NCBI GenBank assembly: GCA_963764625.1
Contig: CAVXTH010000005.1
Span: 32,001 to 96,000 of the forward strand
Length of the DNA stretch: 64,000 bases
Source: Candidatus Krumholzibacteriota bacterium
GTDB lineage: Bacteria; Krumholzibacteriota; Krumholzibacteriia; JAJRXK01
Reading direction: 5' to 3'
Within the stretch, counting starts at the first letter, position 1, and each line of letters starts with the position of its first letter. Below are positions 488 through 20,884 of the stretch, in pieces. Under the pieces are notes generated by a model. The model was given only the letters and a program-made list of their open reading frames with translations. It was not told where the DNA came from and did no database searches. A program made the translations under genes and the position numbers.

Positions 488-2818
488 CTACTTGAGAGAG
501 GCAACGCCGTTCTTGAGTTTGGAACTTCTGGCCTTGGCTTCCAGGGCATCCAGAACGCGCTCGGGAGTAAACGGCAACTTGCGCAGGCGAATGCCGACCG
601 CGTCGTAAATGGCATTTCCCACCGCGGGAATGACGGGCGAGAGCGCGCCCTCGCCGCACTCCTTGGCGCCGTAAGGACCTTCGGGGTCGTGGCTCTCGAT
701 GATGATGGCCTCGATCGGCGGCGTGTCGACGCTGGTGGGAACTTTGTAGTCGAGGAAATTGGCGTTCATGAGCAAATTGTCCTTCTTGTACCGCATCTCC
801 TCCATCAGCGTCTGTCCCAGGCCCATGTGCACGCTGCCTTCGATCTGTCCCGCCACCGCCAGAGGGTTCAGGGCAAAGCCGCAATCGTGCGCGGCCCACA
901 CCTTCACTACTTTCACGAAGCCGGTCTCGAGGTCCACTTTCACTTCAGCGACGAACGCGCCGAAGGAATAGCTGGGCGAGAGTCCCGCCGCCGCGCCCTT
1001 GAAGTCGCCCCCCAGTTTCGGAGACTGATACCAGCCCTTGGCGATGAGAGCCCCGCCCTCGGACATGGCTTCCTCGAGCGCGTCAAAATAGGAAACCTCG
1101 ACTTCGGGCTCGTTCACGCTGGTGAGCTTGCCGCCTTCGAATTCCCACCGCGCGCGCGGACGTCCCGCGATGTGGCAGGCAGCCCTGGAGAGCTTTTCGC
1201 GGATGACCCGCGCCGCGTCCCGGGTGGCATTGCCCAGCATGAAAGTGACCCGGCTGCTGTAACTTCCCAAGTCGAGAGGCGCGGTGTCGGTATCTTGACT
1301 GCGCACCCGCATCATCGAGAGTGGCAGACCGAGTTCCTCCGCCACCACCTGCGCCATGACGGTGTCCGAGCCCTGCCCGATTTCGGCCGCCATGTTGTGG
1401 ATGGTGACTCCGCCGTCGCCGTCGATCTTCAAGTGCACCGTACAGTGGGGAAACCGCGTCCAGTGGATGGGAAGGTTGCTCCCACTGATGTAGAAGCCGC
1501 AGCCCACGCCCAGGCCGTGCCCGAAGGGCAACTTGCCCCAGCGTTCACGCCAGCCGCTGCGCTCCATGGCCTGTGAGATCCCATCGCGAATGCCGTTGCT
1601 GGTGATGCGGAAATGATTCTCAGTGAGCGTGTTCTCGGGGAGGAAATTGCGCAGCCGGAATTCGCAGGGGTCCTCCCCCAGTTTCTCGGCCAGCTCGTCC
1701 ACCGTGGTCTCGATGAGGTAGCGGGTATTGACGCTGCCGTGGCCGCGCATCGCTCCGCTGGGCGGGCGGTTGGAATACACCCTCCGCCCGCGATAGCGGA
1801 AGTTGGGAATCCGATACGGCCCCTGGCTGAGCACGCCGTTGTAGTAGGTCGTGACCACTCCAAAACTGGAGAAGGCGCCGCCGTCGATGAGGGCGTCGAG
1901 TTCCAGCGCGGTGATCCCTTCCTCTTTGCTGGCCGACATCTTGACTCGGGTCTCGGTTGGATGGCGTCCGTGATTGACCAGAAAGGTCTCCTCGCGGCTC
2001 ATCACGAGTTTGACGGGGCGTCCGGTCTTCTTGGCCAAAAGACAGACGATCATCTCGTGGGGAAAGGGATCGCTCTTGCCGCCGAAACCGCCGCCGATCA
2101 TGGTGCGCACCACGCGAATCTGGTGCATGGGCAGATCCATCACCTCGGCCAGCGCCCGGTGCACGTAGTGCGGCACCTGGGTGGGCGACCAGAGAGTCAG
2201 TCTGCCGTCGGCTTCGAAGTGTGCGCATACCGCATGCGGTTCGGTAAAGGCGTGATTCACTCCGGGAAATTCGTAGCGGTTCTCGATGAGGGCATCGGCC
2301 GATTCAAACGCCTTGTCGACGTCGCCGAATTCCTGCTCGACCTGCTTCATGATGTTCGTGCCCTCCACCGTCTTGCGGTGCAGGGCTTCGATCTTGTTCC
2401 CCAGCGCATCCGTCATCTTCTTCACCGGCGGAAGCGGCTCGTAGAGCACTTCGATCGCCTCGAGCGCGAGGTCGGCGATTTCCTCGCGGTCGGCAGCCAC
2501 CGCGGCCACGGCATCGCCCACGAAGCGCACGCGTTCAACCGCCATCGCGGTTTCATCCTTGGTGATCGGGAGAACCCCGAATTGCCCGGGGGCCTCCCTT
2601 CCCGTCACCACCGCCCGGACGCCTTTTATCGCGGCCGCTTTCTGGGTATCCACCGATACGACACGGGCATGAGCGTGTGGGCTGTGGAGAATGCGCGCGA
2701 AGAGCATGCCGGGCAGGCGAATGTCCTCGGCGTACTGGCCTTCGCCGGCCACTTTCTTCGCGCCGTCCACCAGCGGGGTTGGTTTGCCGATGAGATTGAA
2801 GTGCTTTTTCTCCCTCAC
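488..2818 (-). CDS. hcrA: Molybdopterin-binding large subunit, 4-hydroxybenzoyl-CoA reductase alpha-like
   Basis: GGGFGGK, GAMRGHG, EIGQGS, GSYSSR and GAKECGEG motifs; lies between the 2Fe-2S and FAD subunits in C-A-B order. Confidence 0.8.
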   Translation of the reverse strand: MREKKHFNLIGKPTPLVDGAKKVAGEGQYAEDIRLPGMLFARILHSPHAHARVVSVDTQKAAAIKGVRAVVTGREAPGQFGVLPITKDETAMAVERVRFVGDAVAAVAADREEIADLALEAIEVLYEPLPPVKKMTDALGNKIEALHRKTVEGTNIMKQVEQEFGDVDKAFESADALIENRYEFPGVNHAFTEPHAVCAHFEADGRLTLWSPTQVPHYVHRALAEVMDLPMHQIRVVRTMIGGGFGGKSDPFPHEMIVCLLAKKTGRPVKLVMSREETFLVNHGRHPTETRVKMSASKEEGITALELDALIDGGAFSSFGVVTTYYNGVLSQGPYRIPNFRYRGRRVYSNRPPSGAMRGHGSVNTRYLIETTVDELAEKLGEDPCEFRLRNFLPENTLTENHFRITSNGIRDGISQAMERSGWRERWGKLPFGHGLGVGCGFYISGSNLPIHWTRFPHCTVHLKIDGDGGVTIHNMAAEIGQGSDTVMAQVVAEELGLPLSMMRVRSQDTDTAPLDLGSYSSRVTFMLGNATRDAARVIREKLSRAACHIAGRPRARWEFEGGKLTSVNEPEVEVSYFDALEEAMSEGGALIAKGWYQSPKLGGDFKGAAAGLSPSYSFGAFVAEVKVDLETGFVKVVKVWAAHDCGFALNPLAVAGQIEGSVHMGLGQTLMEEMRYKKDNLLMNANFLDYKVPTSVDTPPIEAIIIESHDPEGPYGAKECGEGALSPVIPAVGNAIYDAVGIRLRKLPFTPERVLDALEAKARSSKLKNGVASLK

Positions 2819-5052: not shown

Positions 5053-7080
5053 ATGTTGCACGCATCCTCTCCGCGCGGGCGATGCCTCTTCGCCGTCGCG
5101 CTCACTTTGCTTTGTCTTCTCTCGCTGGCTTCCTCCGCGTTCGGGGTGGAGTTTGTGGTGCCGGCAGGCGTGCACGGCGAGCTTCCGGCCCAGTTCCTCG
5201 CAAAGAGCACCATGACCGGCACGGGCAAGATTGCCACCGTCAACCAGACCCACTACGACGTTCTGCACTACGATCTCACTCTCGATCCCTCCTTCGACGA
5301 TCAGACGATCCAGGGCACGGTGCGCATCGACCTCGTGAGCCTGCTCGACGGGCTCACCGATCTCGAGTTCGACCTCTTTCAGAATCTCCAGGGAACCGGC
5401 GCCCATGACGATCAGGGGAATCCGCTGAGCTTCACCCACGAGAACGACTTGCTGACCGTGCAGCTCGCGGACCCGTTGTTCGCCGGTGACAGCCTGAGCG
5501 TCACCATCGACTACGAAGGTTCGCCCCAGCCGGTAGGATTTCTGGGAATGCAGTTTCTCCAGCACGATGGCACCCCGATCCTGGCCACCCTCAGCGAGCC
5601 CTATTACTCGCGTTCGTGGTGGCCCTGCAAGGATCTCCCCGACGACAAGTCGACGGTCACTCTCACCCTACGCGCGCCGCCCGGCTACTACTGCGCGGGC
5701 AACGGCGTGCTGACCTCCCAGGAAGTGCTTCCCAGCGGAGCAGGTACACTCTTCACCTGGGAGGAGGACTACCCCATCAGCTCGTACAACGTATCGGTCG
5801 CCGTGACCAACTACGTGGGGTGGACCGAGAACTGGACGAGCCCGAGCGGCACTCCGATGGTCCTGGAGTACAGGGTGTTTCCCGAGGACCTCAACAAGGC
5901 CCTCGTCGATTTCGCGTCCACACGGGAAATGCTCGACCTCTATTCAACGCTCTTCGGCGAGTATCCGTTCGTCAACGACAAGTACGGAATGGCGGAGTTC
6001 ATTTTCGACGGCGCCATGGAACATCAGACCATGACGAGCTACGGACAATCGCTCATCACCGGCGACAACTTCTACGAGACCCTCGTGGGTCACGAGATGG
6101 CGCACCAGTGGTTCGGCAACCTGGTCACGGTCAAGGATTGGAACGAAGTATGGCTCCACGAGGGCTTCGCCACCTACGCGGAGGCGCTCTGGGTCGAACA
6201 CAAGAGCGGGTTCGAGGCGTACCACCACTTCATGCTGTCGCATTCCGCCTATCAGATCGGCTTCTACGGTCCAGTGAGTCCGCCCATTCCCCTGTTCGGC
6301 GGAACCGTCTACCAGAAAGGCGCCTGGATTCTGCACATGTTACGCCACATGATCGGGGACAACGATTTCTTCCAGGTGCTCAAGACCTACTCGGCCTCGC
6401 CCAACTTACGTTACGGCGCGGCGAGGATCTCCGACTTCATTTCGATCGCGGAATCGGTGAGCGGCACCGAATTGTCCTGGTTCTTCGACGAGTGGCTCTA
6501 TCGCATCGGTCGTCCGGAATACCGGATGTCGTGGAGAAGCGAGAACCTGGGTGAGAACTACCGGGTGGTGGTTACGATCGAGCAGATGCAGAGCGGAGAT
6601 ACCTACCGCATGCCACTGGACTTCGTGGTGGACACCGCGGCGGGGAGTCAGACTTTCGTGGTGTGGAACGACGGAGCGTACCAGGTGGCCTCGTTCATCG
6701 TTCCGACGCAACCCACCGATGTCCGCCTCGATCCCGACGACTGGGTTCTGCGCTGGAACCAGAATCCCAATATTCCCACCTCGGTGCCACAGCTCACGGC
6801 GAGTCGGCTCGCGCTTCTCCCCAACGTTCCAAATCCCTTCAATCCCTCGACGCGCTTGCGGTTCACCCTTCCCGGGGAAGTTCCGGTCCAGTTGCGCATC
6901 GTCGACATGCGAGGCCGCACCGTCCGGCGTTTCCAAACCGATTCGATGGGGGCGGGACAGCACGAACTGATTTGGAGCGGGCGCGACGACAGTGGTCAAC
7001 CGGTGGCGTCGGGCGTGTATACCGTGGTGTTGCAGGAAGCGGACCAGACCGCGGCGCAGAGAATCACTCTGGTCAAGTAG
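5053..7080 (+). CDS. Secreted M1 family aminopeptidase with C-terminal FlgD-Ig/secretion-tail domain
   Basis: Signal peptide, GAMEH, HEMAHQW-x-LHEGFATY, YQKGA; tail PNPFNP...W.G.D..G..VASGVY. Confidence 0.92.
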   Translation: MLHASSPRGRCLFAVALTLLCLLSLASSAFGVEFVVPAGVHGELPAQFLAKSTMTGTGKIATVNQTHYDVLHYDLTLDPSFDDQTIQGTVRIDLVSLLDGLTDLEFDLFQNLQGTGAHDDQGNPLSFTHENDLLTVQLADPLFAGDSLSVTIDYEGSPQPVGFLGMQFLQHDGTPILATLSEPYYSRSWWPCKDLPDDKSTVTLTLRAPPGYYCAGNGVLTSQEVLPSGAGTLFTWEEDYPISSYNVSVAVTNYVGWTENWTSPSGTPMVLEYRVFPEDLNKALVDFASTREMLDLYSTLFGEYPFVNDKYGMAEFIFDGAMEHQTMTSYGQSLITGDNFYETLVGHEMAHQWFGNLVTVKDWNEVWLHEGFATYAEALWVEHKSGFEAYHHFMLSHSAYQIGFYGPVSPPIPLFGGTVYQKGAWILHMLRHMIGDNDFFQVLKTYSASPNLRYGAARISDFISIAESVSGTELSWFFDEWLYRIGRPEYRMSWRSENLGENYRVVVTIEQMQSGDTYRMPLDFVVDTAAGSQTFVVWNDGAYQVASFIVPTQPTDVRLDPDDWVLRWNQNPNIPTSVPQLTASRLALLPNVPNPFNPSTRLRFTLPGEVPVQLRIVDMRGRTVRRFQTDSMGAGQHELIWSGRDDSGQPVASGVYTVVLQEADQTAAQRITLVK

Positions 7081-7131
7081 CGTCTCCACCCCGTACGAAT
7101 CGGGGAGGGGAGCAGGCCGGCCAACTGTGCC

Positions 7132-7841
7132 GAGTTCATGCCCCAGTGGACTCGACCAATGACCTGACTGGGGGGTGTCGGCTGAATCACTCAAGGTGTC
7201 CGTCGAACGAGGGCCCCCGCCGTCTGGCGCTCACAGGGGATCGACCCTGAAGCCTGTCCGTGCACGTCAGCCGGTCCTGCTTCCAACCCAACCGAACCGC
7301 GCGGATGAGGGGAAGGGAACTCAGGAGGCAAACGGTCCCTGAGAGGGTTTCCCCTCCCGTCCACCTCCCAGTACCCCGCCTGAACCCTTGTTTGAAAGAC
7401 GCCAGAGGCCGGAACACAGACGCGACATCAACGAGAACCGGCGCCGGGAGCACAGTCAACCAAATGCCCAGGCATTCACCCGCTGAAGAGCCGCGCGACG
7501 GGAAGTGGACTGCCTCACAACTGGCAGGCACTTCGGCCCGCTCTTCAGTCTTCACGAGTCTCTTGGGAAATTCCGGGCCTAGGGCGAGACGCAAGGCACC
7601 TGGCTGAACCGAGCAATCTCGCGACATCGCGCCTCTTGAAACTTCCAGTCCCCACTGGGACTAGACCCGCTTCGATAGACTTGGACGTCGCCGGTGACTC
7701 GGGTGAGGAATGCTCCAGTTCCGTAAGGAAGTGCGGCGAGGGTGCAAACTCGGGGTCTGGAGTCCCCTAGTCTCCGTGGAGGTAATGGTCCGTAGACGAG
7801 CCACTGGATAGACAAACAAGTCTACTTCGCCATGAACTCCT
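7132..7841 (-). ncRNA. Candidate large (~710 nt) structured non-coding RNA, class unrecognised
   Basis: Promoter directly upstream; terminal helices GAGUUCAUG/CAUGAACUC (7839-7831 with 7140-7132) and CCAGUGG/CCACUGG (7807-7801 with 7149-7143); many internal stems whose G.U pairs work only on the minus strand; GAAA tetraloop; no credible ORF. Confidence 0.7.
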
Positions 7842-7847
7842 GTCGAA

Positions 7848-7876
7848 AAGTTACGGAAGCCATTCGGGGACGTCAA
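7848..7876 (-). promoter_or_regulatory. sigma70-type promoter of the large RNA
   Basis: TTGACG (7876-7871), 17-nt spacer, TAACTT (7853-7848); predicted +1 at about 7841/7840, the first base of the terminal helix. Confidence 0.7.
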
Positions 7877-7885
7877 CCCCCCCAC

Positions 7886-8749
7886 TCAACTCTGGCCGAG
7901 ATGGGTGGTAAACCACTCGGAACTCAAAGCCAGCGCGCGGTCCAGGGCGTCGGTCGTGCCCGCGAAGGGGTGAATCGCGTTCCAGGTGTGTCCGGTGCCC
8001 GGGATCATCTCCAGGTGGCAGCCGTCCGCCTCGCCGCGCCCCGCGCGGAGCGTCTGGGCATTCTGGGGATCGACCGCCAGATCATTCTCCGCCTGCAGAA
8101 TGAGGTGGGCCGCCTTCATTTCCTTGACCCCAGCGGTGAGGTCATAGCGCCGCGCGTTCTCGCGCGCATCTTCCACCAGAGTGAACCCCACCGCCATGCG
8201 CTGCTTCGTACGAGAATTCAGGAACTCCAGCTTGCCTTCCTCTTCCCAGTCGCGGAGCTGACGCTCGGTGTAGTGCAAGGCCTGGGAAATTCCGTTCCAG
8301 GTGACGAGAGCGGCGATCGCCGGATCCTCCCTCGCGACGACGATGGCGCTCAGGGCTCCCCGGCTGTGCGCGAGGAGACCGACACCAAGCCTACGGGTTT
8401 CTTCGGGAAGAGGAGACTCTCTTCGCAACCAGCTGAGGACATGCTCGAGATCCTCGATCTCCCGGGCATAGGTGTTGCGCTCGAAAAGATCCAGCCGATC
8501 GAACTCGCCGGGCCTCTCTCCGACTCCATTCAACGAGAAATCGAAGCAGACCGTGACGAATCCTCTGGTGGCCAAGGTGCGCCCGAGGTAGGGGAAGAAC
8601 CCCCAGTTCTTGAAACCCTTGAAGCCGTGCACGATTACGACCAGACCGAGGGCTTGCTCCTCGGCCGGCCGGCGGAGATCCAGGCGCAAGGGAAGTCCGT
8701 CCCTGCACTGAAGTTGGTGCTGGCTCTCTCTCAGGTTCATCCCTACCAT
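7886..8749 (-). CDS. Alpha/beta hydrolase (S9/dienelactone hydrolase-like)
   Basis: HGFKGFKNWG, nucleophile elbow AHSRG, catalytic D and GHTW; start is 8749 or 8740. Confidence 0.85.
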   Translation of the reverse strand: MVGMNLRESQHQLQCRDGLPLRLDLRRPAEEQALGLVVIVHGFKGFKNWGFFPYLGRTLATRGFVTVCFDFSLNGVGERPGEFDRLDLFERNTYAREIEDLEHVLSWLRRESPLPEETRRLGVGLLAHSRGALSAIVVAREDPAIAALVTWNGISQALHYTERQLRDWEEEGKLEFLNSRTKQRMAVGFTLVEDARENARRYDLTAGVKEMKAAHLILQAENDLAVDPQNAQTLRAGRGEADGCHLEMIPGTGHTWNAIHPFAGTTDALDRALALSSEWFTTHLGQS

Positions 8750-8798
8750 CCCCTTCGCCGATTTTCTTGAGCTTTCATCTCGTTCGGAAAGTGGTCGC

Positions 8799-9479
8799 AT
8801 GCGCGCGAATTCGCCAATCGAGGCGGCGGTTTTCGACCTGGACGGAACCCTGGTGGATTCGCGTCAGGCCATCGTCCATGCGGTCGCCGAAGGCGTTCGC
8901 CGCGTCTTTGAGAATCACGCGATCGACGATCACGCGCCCGACGAAACCGCGATCATGGATGCCATGGGCCTTCCCCCGGTGGAATACTACCGCAGAATCC
9001 TTCCTTCGCACCTGGCCCATCTGGCCGGCGAGGTCAAGGAGAGCGCCACCGCCGCCGAAATCGAAGTTCTGGCGCGGGGCGAGGGGAAGCTGTACCCGAA
9101 AGTACGCGAGACCCTGCAACAGCTGCGCGCGCGGGGCGTTCGCCTCGCGATCGTGAGCAACGCGCAGGAGCCGTATTTCCGCGCGTGTATACGCTACTTG
9201 AAGCTCTCGGATCTGGTGGAACACACCGAGTGTCACGAGGAACTTCCCGTGGGTGTCGGCGAAGGCAAGCCCGTGCTCTTGCGGCGGGCCCTCACAGAAT
9301 TGGGCGTGGAGGCGGCGCGCAGTGTGATGGTCGGAGACCGCAGGGAAGACATCGCCGCGGGCCAAGAACTGGGGTGCGCGACCGTCGGTTTGAGCTATGG
9401 CTTCGCGGGAGAGGGGGAACTCGAGGACGCCGATCAGGTGTACGCCGAATTCGAGCGCCTCCTGGAACTGGCGCGCTGA
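8799..9479 (+). CDS. HAD-superfamily hydrolase (phosphoglycolate phosphatase-like)
   Basis: FDLDGTL, SN, KP and VGDRREDI motifs. Confidence 0.88.
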   Translation: MRANSPIEAAVFDLDGTLVDSRQAIVHAVAEGVRRVFENHAIDDHAPDETAIMDAMGLPPVEYYRRILPSHLAHLAGEVKESATAAEIEVLARGEGKLYPKVRETLQQLRARGVRLAIVSNAQEPYFRACIRYLKLSDLVEHTECHEELPVGVGEGKPVLLRRALTELGVEAARSVMVGDRREDIAAGQELGCATVGLSYGFAGEGELEDADQVYAEFERLLELAR

Positions 9480-18588: not shown

Positions 18589-20652
<2,064 letters not shown>

Positions 20653-20706
20653 CGTCTTCTCCCGCAATTGGGGCCTCAAACTTGGGGGATCGTCCTACAT
20701 GCAGGC

Positions 20707-20722: not shown

Positions 20723-20884
20723 AGCTCGAATCTGATGTCAACTGGTGTGATGACAAGCCGTTGCGCTCGCAGGGGTGCAAGGTCATGGAGTGGAACTCGC
20801 CGCTGACATCCTCAACTTAGCCATGGTGGGCGGGGGCCGTCAAGCAAACCGAAGCACGCTGTGCGCGGCCGAAACGGCCCGAGC

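What the first reader, a model, noticed from the sequence alone, without database searches (positions are those of the whole stretch)
7132..7876. ~710-nt highly structured orphan ncRNA with its own promoter and paired ends
Seen: an 800-bp gap between convergent genes with TTGACG-N17-TAACTT, whose +1 coincides with a long irregular 5'/3' closing helix (GAGUUCAUG/CAUGAACUC; CCAGUGG-CUC/GAG-U-CCACUGG; GACCA/UGGUC; ACCU/AGGU; GACU-A-GGGG/CCCC-C-AGUC). Internal stems include CUAGUCCC-AGUG-GGGACUGG (7664-7645), CUGAAGAGC/GCUCUUCAG (7548-7540 with 7491-7483) enclosing GAAGUG/CACUUC and CUGCC/GGCAG, and GGAGGUGGACGG/CCGUUUGCCUCC (7368-7357 with 7335-7324, three G.U) enclosing GAGGG-GAAA-CCCUC. The G.U pairs consistently favour the minus strand. 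It lacks RNase P, tmRNA and group II intron signatures. Its size is in the range of OLE/ROOL/GOLLD/MISL RNAs, but I cannot assign it to any of them.
Basis: partly seen in the sequence, partly recalled or inferred. Interest (0 to 1): 0.85.

Follow-up and report, generated by a model that had tools for sequence, protein, structure and literature searches.

The report
Novel large structured RNA gene
This gap holds a conserved, transcribed non-coding RNA gene (about 730 bases here, 410-900 in relatives) that matches no catalogued RNA family and occurs only in a few uncultured salt-marsh bacteria; its function is unknown, and new large structured RNAs are rare.

Summary
The feature is real. The 805-bp gap (7081-7885) holds a minus-strand non-coding RNA gene with its own promoter (TTGACG-N17-TAACTT, 7876-7848).

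- **Distribution:** it is present in 7 genomes of three genera of one Candidatus Krumholzibacteriota family and on one metagenome contig. Predicted lengths are about 410 to 900 nt.
- **Non-coding:** substitutions show no codon periodicity, and there are many 1-nt indels. The gap is more conserved than the neighbouring peptidase gene.
- **Known families:** no Rfam match. RNase P, tmRNA, 6S and SRP RNAs lie elsewhere in the genome.
- **Expression:** salt-marsh RNA libraries hold contigs covering 7111-7817. One contig stops at 7111 against adapter letters, one base past the rod's closing helix.

The function is unknown. My best guess is a stable trans-acting scaffold RNA of an unidentified RNA-protein complex. 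I tested Y-RNA, CsrA-sponge, riboswitch and coding readings and found no support for any. It is a new RNA family with a narrow distribution and moderately high interest.

The parts
7871..7876 (-). -35 box TTGACG
   Evidence: Read. TTGAC[GT] is at the same place in 8 of 8 homologues.
7848..7853 (-). -10-like box TAACTT (family consensus TAnnTT/TAnnGT), 17 nt after the -35 box
   Evidence: It matches TATAAT at only 3 of 6 positions and is not called by the consensus scan. It is supported by conservation, not by consensus strength.
7111..7841 (-). Predicted RNA, about 731 nt. The 5' end is inferred from the promoter. The 3' end comes from an RNA-library contig.
   Evidence: RNA-run contigs cover 7111-7802 (X5, one 719-nt contig) and 7368-7817 (X4). 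The X5 contig abuts adapter letters at 7111. The 5' end is not mapped.
7792..7825 (-). 5' hairpin: stem 7825-7820 with 7797-7792, enclosing a 22-nt loop
   Evidence: The stem is kept with compensatory changes across genera. In one search, pairs 22/53, 23/52 and 25/50 each show 2-3 sequences changed on both sides.
7805..7819 (-). Nearly invariant loop motif UUGUUUGUCUAUCCA
   Evidence: It is identical in the window, G003, L039 and the other-genus G005. G006 has one change, and AUCC is invariant in 8 of 8. No conserved internal partner was found.
7645..7664 (-).
   Evidence: 4 of 6 pairs have compensatory changes among the 4 long forms of the genus.
7483..7548 (-).
   Evidence: The outer helix is 44/44 cells paired with 1 compensatory pair. 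The inner helix is 44/48 cells paired with 2 compensatory pairs.
7315..7377 (-).
   Evidence: 74/76 and 20/20 cells paired within the genus. The cap stem covaries in other genera: GUGGG/CCCAC in G006 and GUGAG/CUCAC in G005.
7699..7707 (-). 5' strand of a predicted long-range helix that closes the variable central domain (pairs with 7296-7288)
   Evidence: In RNAalifold of the long forms, 31/32 cells pair with no compensatory change. Comparable pairings were seen by eye in the short forms. This is the weakest part of the model.
7288..7296 (-). 3' strand of that long-range helix
7112..7280 (-). 3' rod domain, 169 nt: the most conserved part, a long irregular hairpin
   Evidence: Covariance-model hits in 7 genomes and L039. 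On the fitted alignment 92.4% of cells pair and 24 of 58 pairs are compensatory. On the unfitted alignment the figures are 86.3% and 20 of 58. 0 of 500 shuffles reach either result.
7267..7280 (-). 5' strand of the rod's closing helix (GCAGGACCGGCUGA)
   Evidence: This helix of 13 modelled pairs (12-14 per sequence by my hand count) is present in 8 of 8 sequences, with 98.1% of cells paired and 4 compensatory pairs.
7112..7124 (-). 3' strand of the rod's closing helix (UUGGCCGGCCUGC)
   Evidence: C-to-U changes here keep G.U pairs only on this strand.
7084..7112 (.). GC-rich hairpin between the RNA's end and the convergent peptidase stop codon. It has no U or T run.
   Evidence: Read. The terminator scan finds 0 sites in 6900-8100. 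The hairpin is not conserved in sequence among relatives.

Best explanation
This is an independent gene for a stable, structured, non-coding RNA of a previously undescribed family.

**How it is made**
- It is transcribed from its own sigma-70-like promoter on the minus strand.
- No intrinsic terminator is present. I infer that the transcript ends, or is trimmed back, at the base of a very stable GC-rich helix, position 7111/7112.

**Architecture (shown by comparison)**
- A 5' hairpin presents a nearly invariant 15-nt loop.
- A central region varies in length. It is about 350 nt longer in this genome than in two species of the same genus, and it differs again in two other genera.
- An invariant 170-nt 3' rod has helices conserved in sequence on both strands.

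**How it most likely works (inferred, about 40% likely)**
- It acts in trans as the scaffold RNA of an RNA-protein complex.
- The rod would be the protein-binding and stabilising module.
- The 5' loop would be the site that recognises a partner.
- The centre would be tolerated expansion.

**Shown versus inferred**
- Shown: conservation, a non-coding substitution pattern, covariation, the strand, independence from its neighbours, and presence in RNA libraries.
- Inferred: the exact 5' end, 3' trimming, trans action, and any protein partner.
For: **Homologues**
- A blastn search hit 4 of 4 same-genus genomes and 0 of 36 other relatives.
- Covariance models add one genome each of two further genera of the same family: G005 at 36.7 bits and G006 at 30.7 bits. 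With the 8-sequence model these score 107.6 and 93.4 bits.
- One of 16 metagenome pattern hits is real.
- The gene is single-copy in its own genome.

**Independent gene**
- The promoter box is present in 8 of 8 homologues.
- Neighbours differ between lineages. Upstream is an alpha/beta hydrolase here, a HAD hydrolase (divergent) in G001, and an SDR in G006.
- Downstream is a convergent M1 peptidase in the genus. In G005 and G006 it is a convergent 219/231-aa protein whose homologue in this genome lies about 340 kb away.

**Non-coding**
- Against G003, substitutions by position mod 3 are 49/47/46, with twelve 1-nt indels and one 8-nt indel.
- The flanking peptidase gene gives 82/37/21 (third codon position first) and no indel.
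- The gap is 80.5% identical and the peptidase gene 76.7%.
- The internal ORFs have no Pfam hit and are not kept in relatives.

**Structure**
- 3' rod: 92.4% of cells paired against 82.8% in shuffles, and 24 of 58 pairs compensatory against 9.5 expected, 0/500.
- On an alignment not fitted to the model: 86.3% against 81.5%, and 20 compensatory pairs against 6.4 expected, 0/500.
- Whole fold of the 4 long forms: 235 pairs, 16 compensatory against 5.4 expected, 0/500.
- The 5' hairpin stem covaries across genera.

**Strand**
- G.U cells number 76 and A.C cells 10 in the rod. Pairing is 92.4% on this strand and would be 78.1% on the other.

**Expression**
- Three salt-marsh metatranscriptome runs hold it.
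- X5 has one 719-nt contig at depth 36.3 covering 7111-7802. 25 loose letters abut position 7111. I recognise them from memory as the tail of an Illumina read-1 adapter.
- X4 has contigs at 7368-7817 and 7024-7330.
Against: - Only about six independent lineages exist, all in one bacterial family. Covariation statistics on related sequences overstate support, and the shuffle control does not correct for relatedness.
- The interior of the rod folds differently in the two consensus predictions. Only its closing helix and some inner helices are firm.
- Folding energies are unremarkable. The whole RNA gives z = -2.63 from only 20 shuffles. The rod gives z = -1.34 on the RNA strand and -2.02 on the opposite strand.
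- The -10 box is weak by the E. coli consensus and is not called by the scan. That scan calls another site instead, 7846-7819, which is not conserved in relatives.
- Contigs cannot show strand, true ends or level, and RNA libraries can contain DNA.
- The 3' end rests on one contig of one run, and an X4 contig runs on to 7024. The three RNA runs may come from one campaign.
- No partner protein, ligand or target was identified. No gene is conserved beside the RNA across genera.
- The RNA-protein scaffold mechanism is inference from architecture alone.
Confidence: 0.8

Rival explanations
1. It is a ribozyme or an RNA-only self-assembling particle, as found for some other large ornate bacterial RNAs, rather than a protein scaffold.
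For: - It is large (about 410-900 nt), with many conserved helices.
- Several helices are conserved in sequence on both strands, which suggests tertiary contacts.
- No conserved protein gene lies beside it.
- GOLLD, ROOL and OLE RNAs form homo-oligomers, according to the abstract of PMC12286853 seen in the listing.
Against: - No catalytic-core motif or family match was found.
- The central third to half of the molecule is dispensable in two species.
- Nothing here tests catalysis or assembly.
Confidence: 0.15
2. It is a trans-acting regulator that works by base pairing or sequestration. The invariant 5' loop would pair with target RNAs, or repeated motifs would soak up a regulatory protein.
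For: - A 15-nt loop is almost unchanged across three genera and has no conserved partner inside the RNA.
- GAUCC is over-represented in the longest homologue: 6 copies in G005, reached by 0 of 200 shuffles.
Against: - No long complementary site exists in the genome. With up to 2 mismatches over 15 nt there are only 2 other sites.
- Pairing with the rRNA operon is no better than for shuffled loops.
- GGA motifs are not enriched in any of 7 sequences, so it is not a CsrA-type sponge.
- ACGGA and GAUCC enrichments are not family-wide.
Confidence: 0.2
3. It is a cis-acting element: a long 3' UTR of the upstream hydrolase gene, a leader or riboswitch, or an antisense or terminator element for the convergent gene.
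For: - It starts 10 nt after the hydrolase stop codon.
- Its 3' end lies 5-57 nt from the stop codon of a convergent gene in all 7 genomes.
- One RNA contig (X4) runs from the RNA into the end of the peptidase gene.
Against: - The hydrolase gene is missing in G001, yet the RNA and its promoter remain.
- Neighbours on both sides differ between genera.
- No gene follows it on the same strand in any genome, so it cannot be a leader.
Confidence: 0.05
4. One reading: the 5' and 3' ends pair in a long irregular closing helix, at least in this species.
For: All 36 pairs exist in the window and appear in its minimum-energy fold.
Against: - Across 8 homologues 67.3% of cells pair, against 64.9% in shuffles. 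Compensatory pairs number 7 against 6.0 expected, reached by 191 of 500 shuffles.
- In the closest relatives the 5' strand changes while the 3' strand stays fixed.
- Its 3' strand is the descending strand of the supported rod.
- It is absent from both consensus folds.
Confidence: 0.1
5. It is not an RNA gene at all, but a decayed protein gene, a mobile-element remnant, or a chance-structured GC-rich spacer.
For: - GC-rich DNA gives long spurious ORFs and stable folds: 146-aa and 115-aa ORFs lie inside it.
- Folding z-scores are modest.
Against: - It is more conserved than the flanking coding gene, with no codon periodicity and many frame-breaking indels.
- It is single-copy.
- It has a conserved promoter and covariation.
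- It was not found in viral contigs with the pattern used.
Confidence: 0.02

Closest known systems
OLE, ROOL and GOLLD RNAs (large 'ornate' bacterial non-coding RNAs)
   Same: It is several hundred nucleotides long, has many conserved helices, is an independent non-coding transcript with no assigned biochemical function, and has a lineage- or habitat-restricted distribution.
   Different: - It has no covariance-model match to any of them or to any Rfam family.
- It comes from a different phylum.
- No conserved partner gene lies beside it, whereas OLE lies with its partner protein genes (recalled).
- It is not in viral contigs with the pattern used.
- Its length varies twofold through a dispensable centre.
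- Oligomerisation was not tested.
6S RNA (and other rod-shaped RNA polymerase-binding RNAs)
   Same: The 3' domain is a ~170-nt irregular rod closed by a long helix, similar in size to 6S RNA, and it is held at appreciable depth (36.3 for one contig) in one RNA library.
   Different: - The genome has its own 6S RNA elsewhere, at 55.7 bits.
- This locus has no 6S match even at E = 10.
- The consensus rod has no large two-sided central bubble.
- The rod is only the 3' quarter of a longer RNA.
Housekeeping structured RNAs with variable expansions (RNase P RNA, tmRNA, SRP RNA)
   Same: It has a conserved core with lineage-specific insertions, and a mature end that appears to be defined by a stable helix rather than an intrinsic terminator.
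   Different: - All three are found elsewhere in this genome above their family cut-offs.
- This RNA was found in only three genera of one family among the 208 genomes of the phylum searched by pattern and the 151 searched by model.
Bacterial Y RNAs (Ro/Rsr-associated)
   Same: A conserved closing helix carries a GGCUGGUCC-like strand, which I recall resembles the 5' end of animal Y RNAs. The rod also has a UUCGAUCC stretch resembling a tRNA T-loop in two homologues.
   Different: - No TROVE/Rsr gene was found in 0 of 10 genomes of the family, while the control genomes rang.
- It is far larger than Y RNAs.
- It has no Rfam match.

Membership tests
Any Rfam 15 family (4227 models, including OLE, GOLLD, ROOL, HEARO, raiA, group I/II introns, 6S, RNase P, tmRNA, SRP) | Covariance-model score at or above the family's gathering score | tested here: not met
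   - 0 matches in the 64-kb window at gathering thresholds.
- In 6900-8100 there are only 3 matches, at E = 2.1-5.5 and 12-19 bits, against cut-offs of 37-49 bits.
- 0 matches at E <= 0.1 in five homologue loci.
6S RNA | Match to the 6S model; a rod with a large central bubble | tested here: not met
   - The genome's 6S RNA is at C6:723021-723200, 55.7 bits.
- There is no 6S match at this locus.
- The consensus rod has 58 pairs in 171 positions and no two-sided central bubble.
RNase P RNA / tmRNA / SRP RNA | The genome's copy of the universal RNA | tested here: not met
   All three are found elsewhere above their cut-offs: 301.3 bits, 158.3 bits and 77.8 bits.
Y RNA | Co-occurrence with a Ro60/Rsr (TROVE domain) gene | tested here: not met
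   PF05731 was found in 0 of 10 genomes of the family. The control rang in Deinococcus and Bacteroides.
CsrB/RsmZ-type protein-sponge RNA | Many GGA motifs beyond chance | tested here: not met
   GGA counts are 7-18, against shuffled means of 8.3-18.2, in 7 of 7 sequences. Whether a CsrA gene is present was not tested.
Riboswitch or other 5' leader | A regulated gene downstream on the same strand | tested here: not met
   The next gene downstream is convergent in all 7 genomes.
Independent structured ncRNA gene (generic) | Own conserved promoter | tested here: met
   TTGAC[GT]-N17-TAnnnT is present in 8 of 8 homologues. The transcription start is not mapped.
Independent structured ncRNA gene (generic) | Non-coding substitution pattern | tested here: met
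   Substitutions are 49/47/46 by position, with 13 frame-breaking indels. The flanking gene gives 82/37/21 and no indel.
Independent structured ncRNA gene (generic) | Compensatory base changes above controls | tested here: met
   0 of 500 shuffles reach the observed values. The caveat is that there are few, related sequences.
Independent structured ncRNA gene (generic) | Discrete transcript on the predicted strand | tested here: inconclusive
   RNA-library contigs cover 7111-7817, and one ends at 7111 against adapter letters. Contigs cannot show strand or exclude DNA.
Large ornate RNAs as a functional kind (OLE/ROOL/GOLLD-like) | Homo-oligomeric assembly or a membrane RNA-protein complex | not testable with these tools
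   This needs native gels, cryo-EM or pull-downs.

The most novel reading that the evidence does not exclude
This is the founding member of a new class of large ornate RNA, the first from the candidate phylum Krumholzibacteriota. Its conserved core (5' loop hairpin plus 3' rod) would carry out a biochemical function of its own, such as catalysis or RNA-only assembly, rather than merely binding a known regulator.
Probability: 0.15. Interest if true: 0.85.

Novelty: categorically new. Interest (0 to 1): 0.62.

Why it matters
- Bacterial non-coding RNAs longer than about 400 nt with conserved, intricate structure are few. As I recall, those whose function is known are ribozymes or cores of essential RNA-protein machines.
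- The unexplained ones (OLE, GOLLD, ROOL, raiA) are studied intensively, as the papers listed show.
- This adds a new family from an uncultured phylum with no described non-coding RNAs. Full-text searches for Krumholzibacteriota with 'noncoding RNA' found no paper.
- The family has natural short and long forms that already define a minimal core of about 410 nt. That makes it a practical target for structure probing and cryo-EM.
- Limits: it is narrowly distributed, its hosts are uncultured, and nothing yet points to its function.
- I chose 'categorically new' at the level of RNA family only. The general kind, large orphan structured RNAs, has precedents.

Tried and rejected
**Known RNA families.** Rfam scans were run at gathering and permissive thresholds. 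RNase P, tmRNA, 6S and SRP RNAs were located elsewhere in the genome.

**Wider distribution.**
- The 3'-rod models found nothing outside three genera of one family in 151 genomes of the phylum.
- They found nothing in the three genomes of the fourth genus, even at E <= 1.
- In that genus there is no RNA beside the homologue of the gene that neighbours it in G005 and G006, and the 5' motif is absent with up to 2 mismatches.
- The 5' motif pattern hit two genomes of another family, but the hits lie inside what reads as a coding region and have no rod. That reading is by eye only. The protein's identity is not tested.
- The genome-collection pattern gave 7 hits, 4 of them real. The metagenome pattern gave 16 hits, 1 real. 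Viral contigs gave 0. These patterns need exact matches, so divergent relatives would be missed.

**Function leads with no support.**
- Y RNA: no TROVE gene.
- CsrA sponge: GGA is not enriched. ACGGA is enriched only in the long forms of this genus, and GAUCC only in G005.
- An internal partner for the 5' loop: best case 5 columns, mostly G.U.
- A genomic target of the loop and pairing with the rRNA operon: both no better than chance.

**Promoter type.** It is not clearly enriched genome-wide: 8 matches against 3 for the reversed control.

**Alternative promoter.** TCGACA-16-TAGACT at 7846-7819 is rejected. Its -35 box is not kept in relatives, and an RNA contig reaches 7817, beyond the start it would give.

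**Coverage gaps.**
- In the RNA runs most of the flanking genes have no contig. X5 has none apart from a 36-nt partial piece. X4 has one 149-nt piece in the hydrolase gene. X8 has one piece at 6880-7082.

**Other points.**
- Folding z-scores are not decisive for structure or strand.
- Literature: no paper holds Krumholzibacteriota together with 'noncoding RNA'. A looser search gave nothing relevant. Nothing was found for 'MISL', so I could not compare with that name. For papers I saw only search listings and abstract starts and read none. Supplements were not consulted.
- The convergent 219/231-aa neighbour in G005 and G006 looked to me like a DJ-1/ElbB-type protein, but Pfam gave no hit, so I leave it unassigned.
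Full report
**What is there**

The window has an 805-bp gap, 7081-7885. It lies between a + strand gene (5053..7080) and a - strand gene (7886..8800).
- The + strand gene carries M1 peptidase domains plus a C-terminal FlgD_ig domain.
- The - strand gene is an alpha/beta hydrolase.

That includes TTGACG (7876-7871), 17 nt, TAACTT (7853-7848) on the minus strand and the three internal stems. The two ORFs inside the gap (146 aa on the minus strand, 115 aa on the plus strand) have no Pfam match.

**It is conserved and does not code**

A DNA search of 40 relatives found the gap's sequence in 4 of 4 genomes of the same genus and in 0 of 36 others. It is single-copy in its own genome.

| Comparison with G003 | Identity | Substitutions by position mod 3 | Indels |
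|---|---|---|---|
| The gap | 80.5% | 49/47/46 | twelve 1-nt, one 8-nt |
| Last 600 nt of the peptidase gene | 76.7% | 82/37/21 (third codon position first) | none |

The internal ORFs are not kept in relatives. The gap is therefore under purifying selection that is not selection on a protein.

**Family and distribution**

- Two genomes of the genus (G003, G002) have full-length copies at about 79% identity.
- Two others (G004, G001) share only the first ~150 nt and the last ~200 nt. They lack about 350 nt of the centre.
- A covariance model of the last 170 nt found weak full-length matches in one genome each of two further genera of the same family: G005 at 36.7 bits and G006 at 30.7 bits.
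- Reading those loci showed the same promoter box, the same 5' motif and recognisable central hairpins. They are true homologues. With the 8-sequence model they score 107.6 and 93.4 bits.
- Predicted lengths, from promoter to the end of the rod, are about 731 nt here and about 726 and 730 nt in G003 and G002. They are 413 and 423 nt in G004 and G001, 904 nt in G005 and 765 nt in G006.
- Nothing was found in the three genomes of the fourth genus of the family. Nothing was found in the other families of the phylum: 151 genomes by model and 208 by the 5' pattern, whose two outside hits lie in coding sequence.
- An exact-pattern scan of one genome per species of bacteria and archaea gave 7 hits. 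Four score as real. Three of their record titles name Candidatus Krumholzibacteriota or Krumholzibacteriia, and one says 'uncultured bacterium'.
- A metagenome scan gave 16 hits, one real (L039). Viral contigs gave none.

**It is an independent gene**

The promoter box TTGAC[GT]-N17-TAnnnT is present in 8 of 8 copies. The neighbours change between lineages:
- The hydrolase gene upstream is absent in G001, where a divergent HAD hydrolase stands instead.
- G006 has an SDR upstream.
- The convergent downstream gene is the M1 peptidase in this genus.
- In G005 and G006 it is a 219/231-aa protein of no Pfam family. The two are 42% identical to each other, and the homologue in this genome lies about 340 kb away.

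No gene follows the RNA on its own strand in any genome. This rules out a leader or riboswitch, and a fixed cis role for one neighbour is unlikely.

**Structure**

*3' rod.* The last ~170 nt (7280-7112) form a self-closed irregular rod. Its closing helix has 13 modelled pairs (12-14 per sequence by my hand count), GCAGGACCGGCUGA with UUGGCCGGCCUGC, and is present in 8 of 8 sequences. Its outer pairs covary.

| Alignment | Cells paired | Shuffled | Compensatory pairs | Expected | Covariation score (shuffled) | Shuffles reaching it |
|---|---|---|---|---|---|---|
| Fitted to the model | 92.4% | 82.8% | 24 of 58 | 9.5 | 0.339 (0.160) | 0/500 |
| Plain MAFFT, not fitted | 86.3% | 81.5% | 20 of 58 | 6.4 | 0.217 (0.141) | 0/500 |

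*5' hairpin.* The stem (7825-7820 with 7797-7792) covaries across genera: GUAGAC/GUCUAC here, GUGGGC/GUCCAC in G004, CGGGC/GCCCG in G005 and GCGC/GCGC in G006. It presents a loop whose first 15 nt, UUGUUUGUCUAUCCA, are nearly invariant.

- The 7664-7645 hairpin has 4 of 6 pairs compensated.
- The 7548-7483 domain has 3 compensated pairs.

*Whole fold.* The consensus fold of the four long forms has 235 pairs, 16 of them compensated against 5.4 expected (0/500).

*Caveats.* There are about six independent lineages, and relatedness inflates these controls. The two consensus folds disagree on parts of the rod's interior.

**The closing helix fails**

It is present in this sequence and in its minimum-energy fold.
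- Across the eight homologues only 67.3% of cells pair, against 64.9% in shuffles.
- Compensated pairs number 7 against 6.0 expected (reached by 191 of 500 shuffles).
- The covariation score is 0.124 against 0.114 (reached by 112 of 500 shuffles).
- In the nearest relatives the 5' strand drifts (UUCAUG, CGCAUG, UGCGUG) while the 3' strand is fixed.
- That 3' strand is the descending strand of the supported rod.

Neither consensus fold contains the helix. The ends are most likely not paired with each other.

**Strand, ends and expression**

- *Strand.* The rod has 76 G.U cells against 10 A.C cells. It would be 92.4% paired on the minus strand and 78.1% on the plus strand. The conserved promoter also lies on the minus strand.
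- *Terminator.* No intrinsic terminator is found.
- *Runs.* Near-identical sequence is held in salt-marsh DNA runs and in metatranscriptome runs. I laid three RNA runs and one DNA run on 6000-9000.
- *X5.* One 719-nt contig at depth 36.3 covers 7111-7802. Its first 25 letters lie on nothing here. I recognise them from memory as the tail of an Illumina read-1 adapter, so many fragments ended exactly at 7111. That is one base past the last pair of the rod's closing helix.
- *X4.* Contigs cover 7368-7817 and 7024-7330.
- *X8.* Pieces lie at 7124-7274 and 7426-7595.
- *Limits.* Contigs cannot give strand or level, RNA libraries may hold DNA, the three runs may be one campaign, and the X4 contig runs past 7111. 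I read this as presence in RNA libraries over nearly the whole predicted RNA, plus a hint of a discrete 3' end.
Eight fall in pairs that are valid in the window, and 7 of those keep the pair through a G.U intermediate.

**Known families excluded**

- There is no Rfam match in the window, none in the region beyond three chance-level hits, and none in five homologue loci.
- The genome's RNase P RNA, tmRNA, 6S RNA and SRP RNA are all elsewhere, above their cut-offs.
- A Y-RNA reading was prompted by a recalled likeness of the closing helix strand. It fails because no TROVE/Rsr gene is found in 0 of 10 genomes of the family.
- A CsrA-sponge reading fails because GGA is not enriched in any of 7 sequences.

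**How it probably works**

*Shown:* a single-copy, independently promoted, conserved, structured, non-coding transcript. It has a fixed 5' hairpin loop, a fixed 3' rod and a dispensable, expandable centre.

*Inferred:* a primary transcript from about 7841 is trimmed back to, or ends at, the stable closing helix at 7111/7112.

- Helices conserved in sequence on both strands, together with an invariant exposed loop, point to recognition by a macromolecular partner. So does tolerance of large insertions between them.
- My best guess, about 40%, is a trans-acting scaffold RNA of an RNA-protein complex.
- A base-pairing or sequestering regulator is about 20% likely. I found no target for the loop in the genome or the rRNA operon beyond chance and no internal partner.
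- A ribozyme or RNA-only assembly is about 15% likely. Nothing here tests it.
- Cis-acting, artefact and paired-ends readings are each at or below 10%.

**Novelty and verdict**

No catalogued family fits. Full-text searches found no paper on non-coding RNAs of this phylum (listings only). It is a new RNA family within the loosely defined company of large orphan structured bacterial RNAs. Interest is moderately high. Such RNAs are rare, and this one has a natural minimal form, but it is confined to a few uncultured species and nothing yet indicates its function.

Noticed in passing
window 20814-20843 (-), upstream of ORF 18589..20679 (-): A second TTGACG-N17-TAAGTT box, of the same type as the RNA's promoter, lies about 135 nt upstream of a PrkA serine kinase gene (Pfam AAA_PrkA 6.5e-87, PrkA 1.6e-83). 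This suggests that this box type is a working promoter in this organism. Genome-wide there are 8 matches against 3 for a reversed control.
   Followed up: partly
window 5053-7080 (+): The convergent M1 peptidase carries a C-terminal FlgD_ig domain (1.9e-11). I recall that such a domain is often a secretion or sorting tail in this superphylum. This was not tested.
   Followed up: no
window 7877-7885 (-), and the same place in relatives: A run of 6-7 G stands directly before the -35 box in the window, G003, G002 and L039. G001 has 4 G and G005 has 5 G there. The run is absent in G004 and G006. Its role is unknown.
   Followed up: no
window 7823-7840 (-): A Shine-Dalgarno-like AGGAG is followed 3 nt later by a three-codon mini-ORF: AUG GCG AAG UAG here, AUG GUG AAG UAG in G003 and GUG GGU AAG UAG in G002. 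It is not kept in the short forms or the other genera, so it is probably meaningless.
   Followed up: partly
L027 (G005) 1501-2411 (-): The longest homologue holds 6 copies of GAUCC (reached by 0 of 200 shuffles) and 10 of AUCC (1 of 200). Three of the GAUCC copies occur as UCGAUCC, the motif that is invariant in the rod. This may be a repeated binding site in the expansions.
   Followed up: partly
L051 (G046) and L052 (G132), genus g31: The 15-mer of the RNA's 5' loop also occurs in two genomes of another family, inside what reads as a protein-coding region on the opposite strand. This is a chance or coding match, not an RNA homologue.
   Followed up: yes
L027:784-1443 (+) and L044:789-1484 (+): In G005 and G006 the RNA converges on a 219/231-aa protein with no Pfam hit. 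The two are 42% identical over 167 residues. A homologue sits inside a 733-aa open frame at C5:376305-376925 of this genome.
   Followed up: partly
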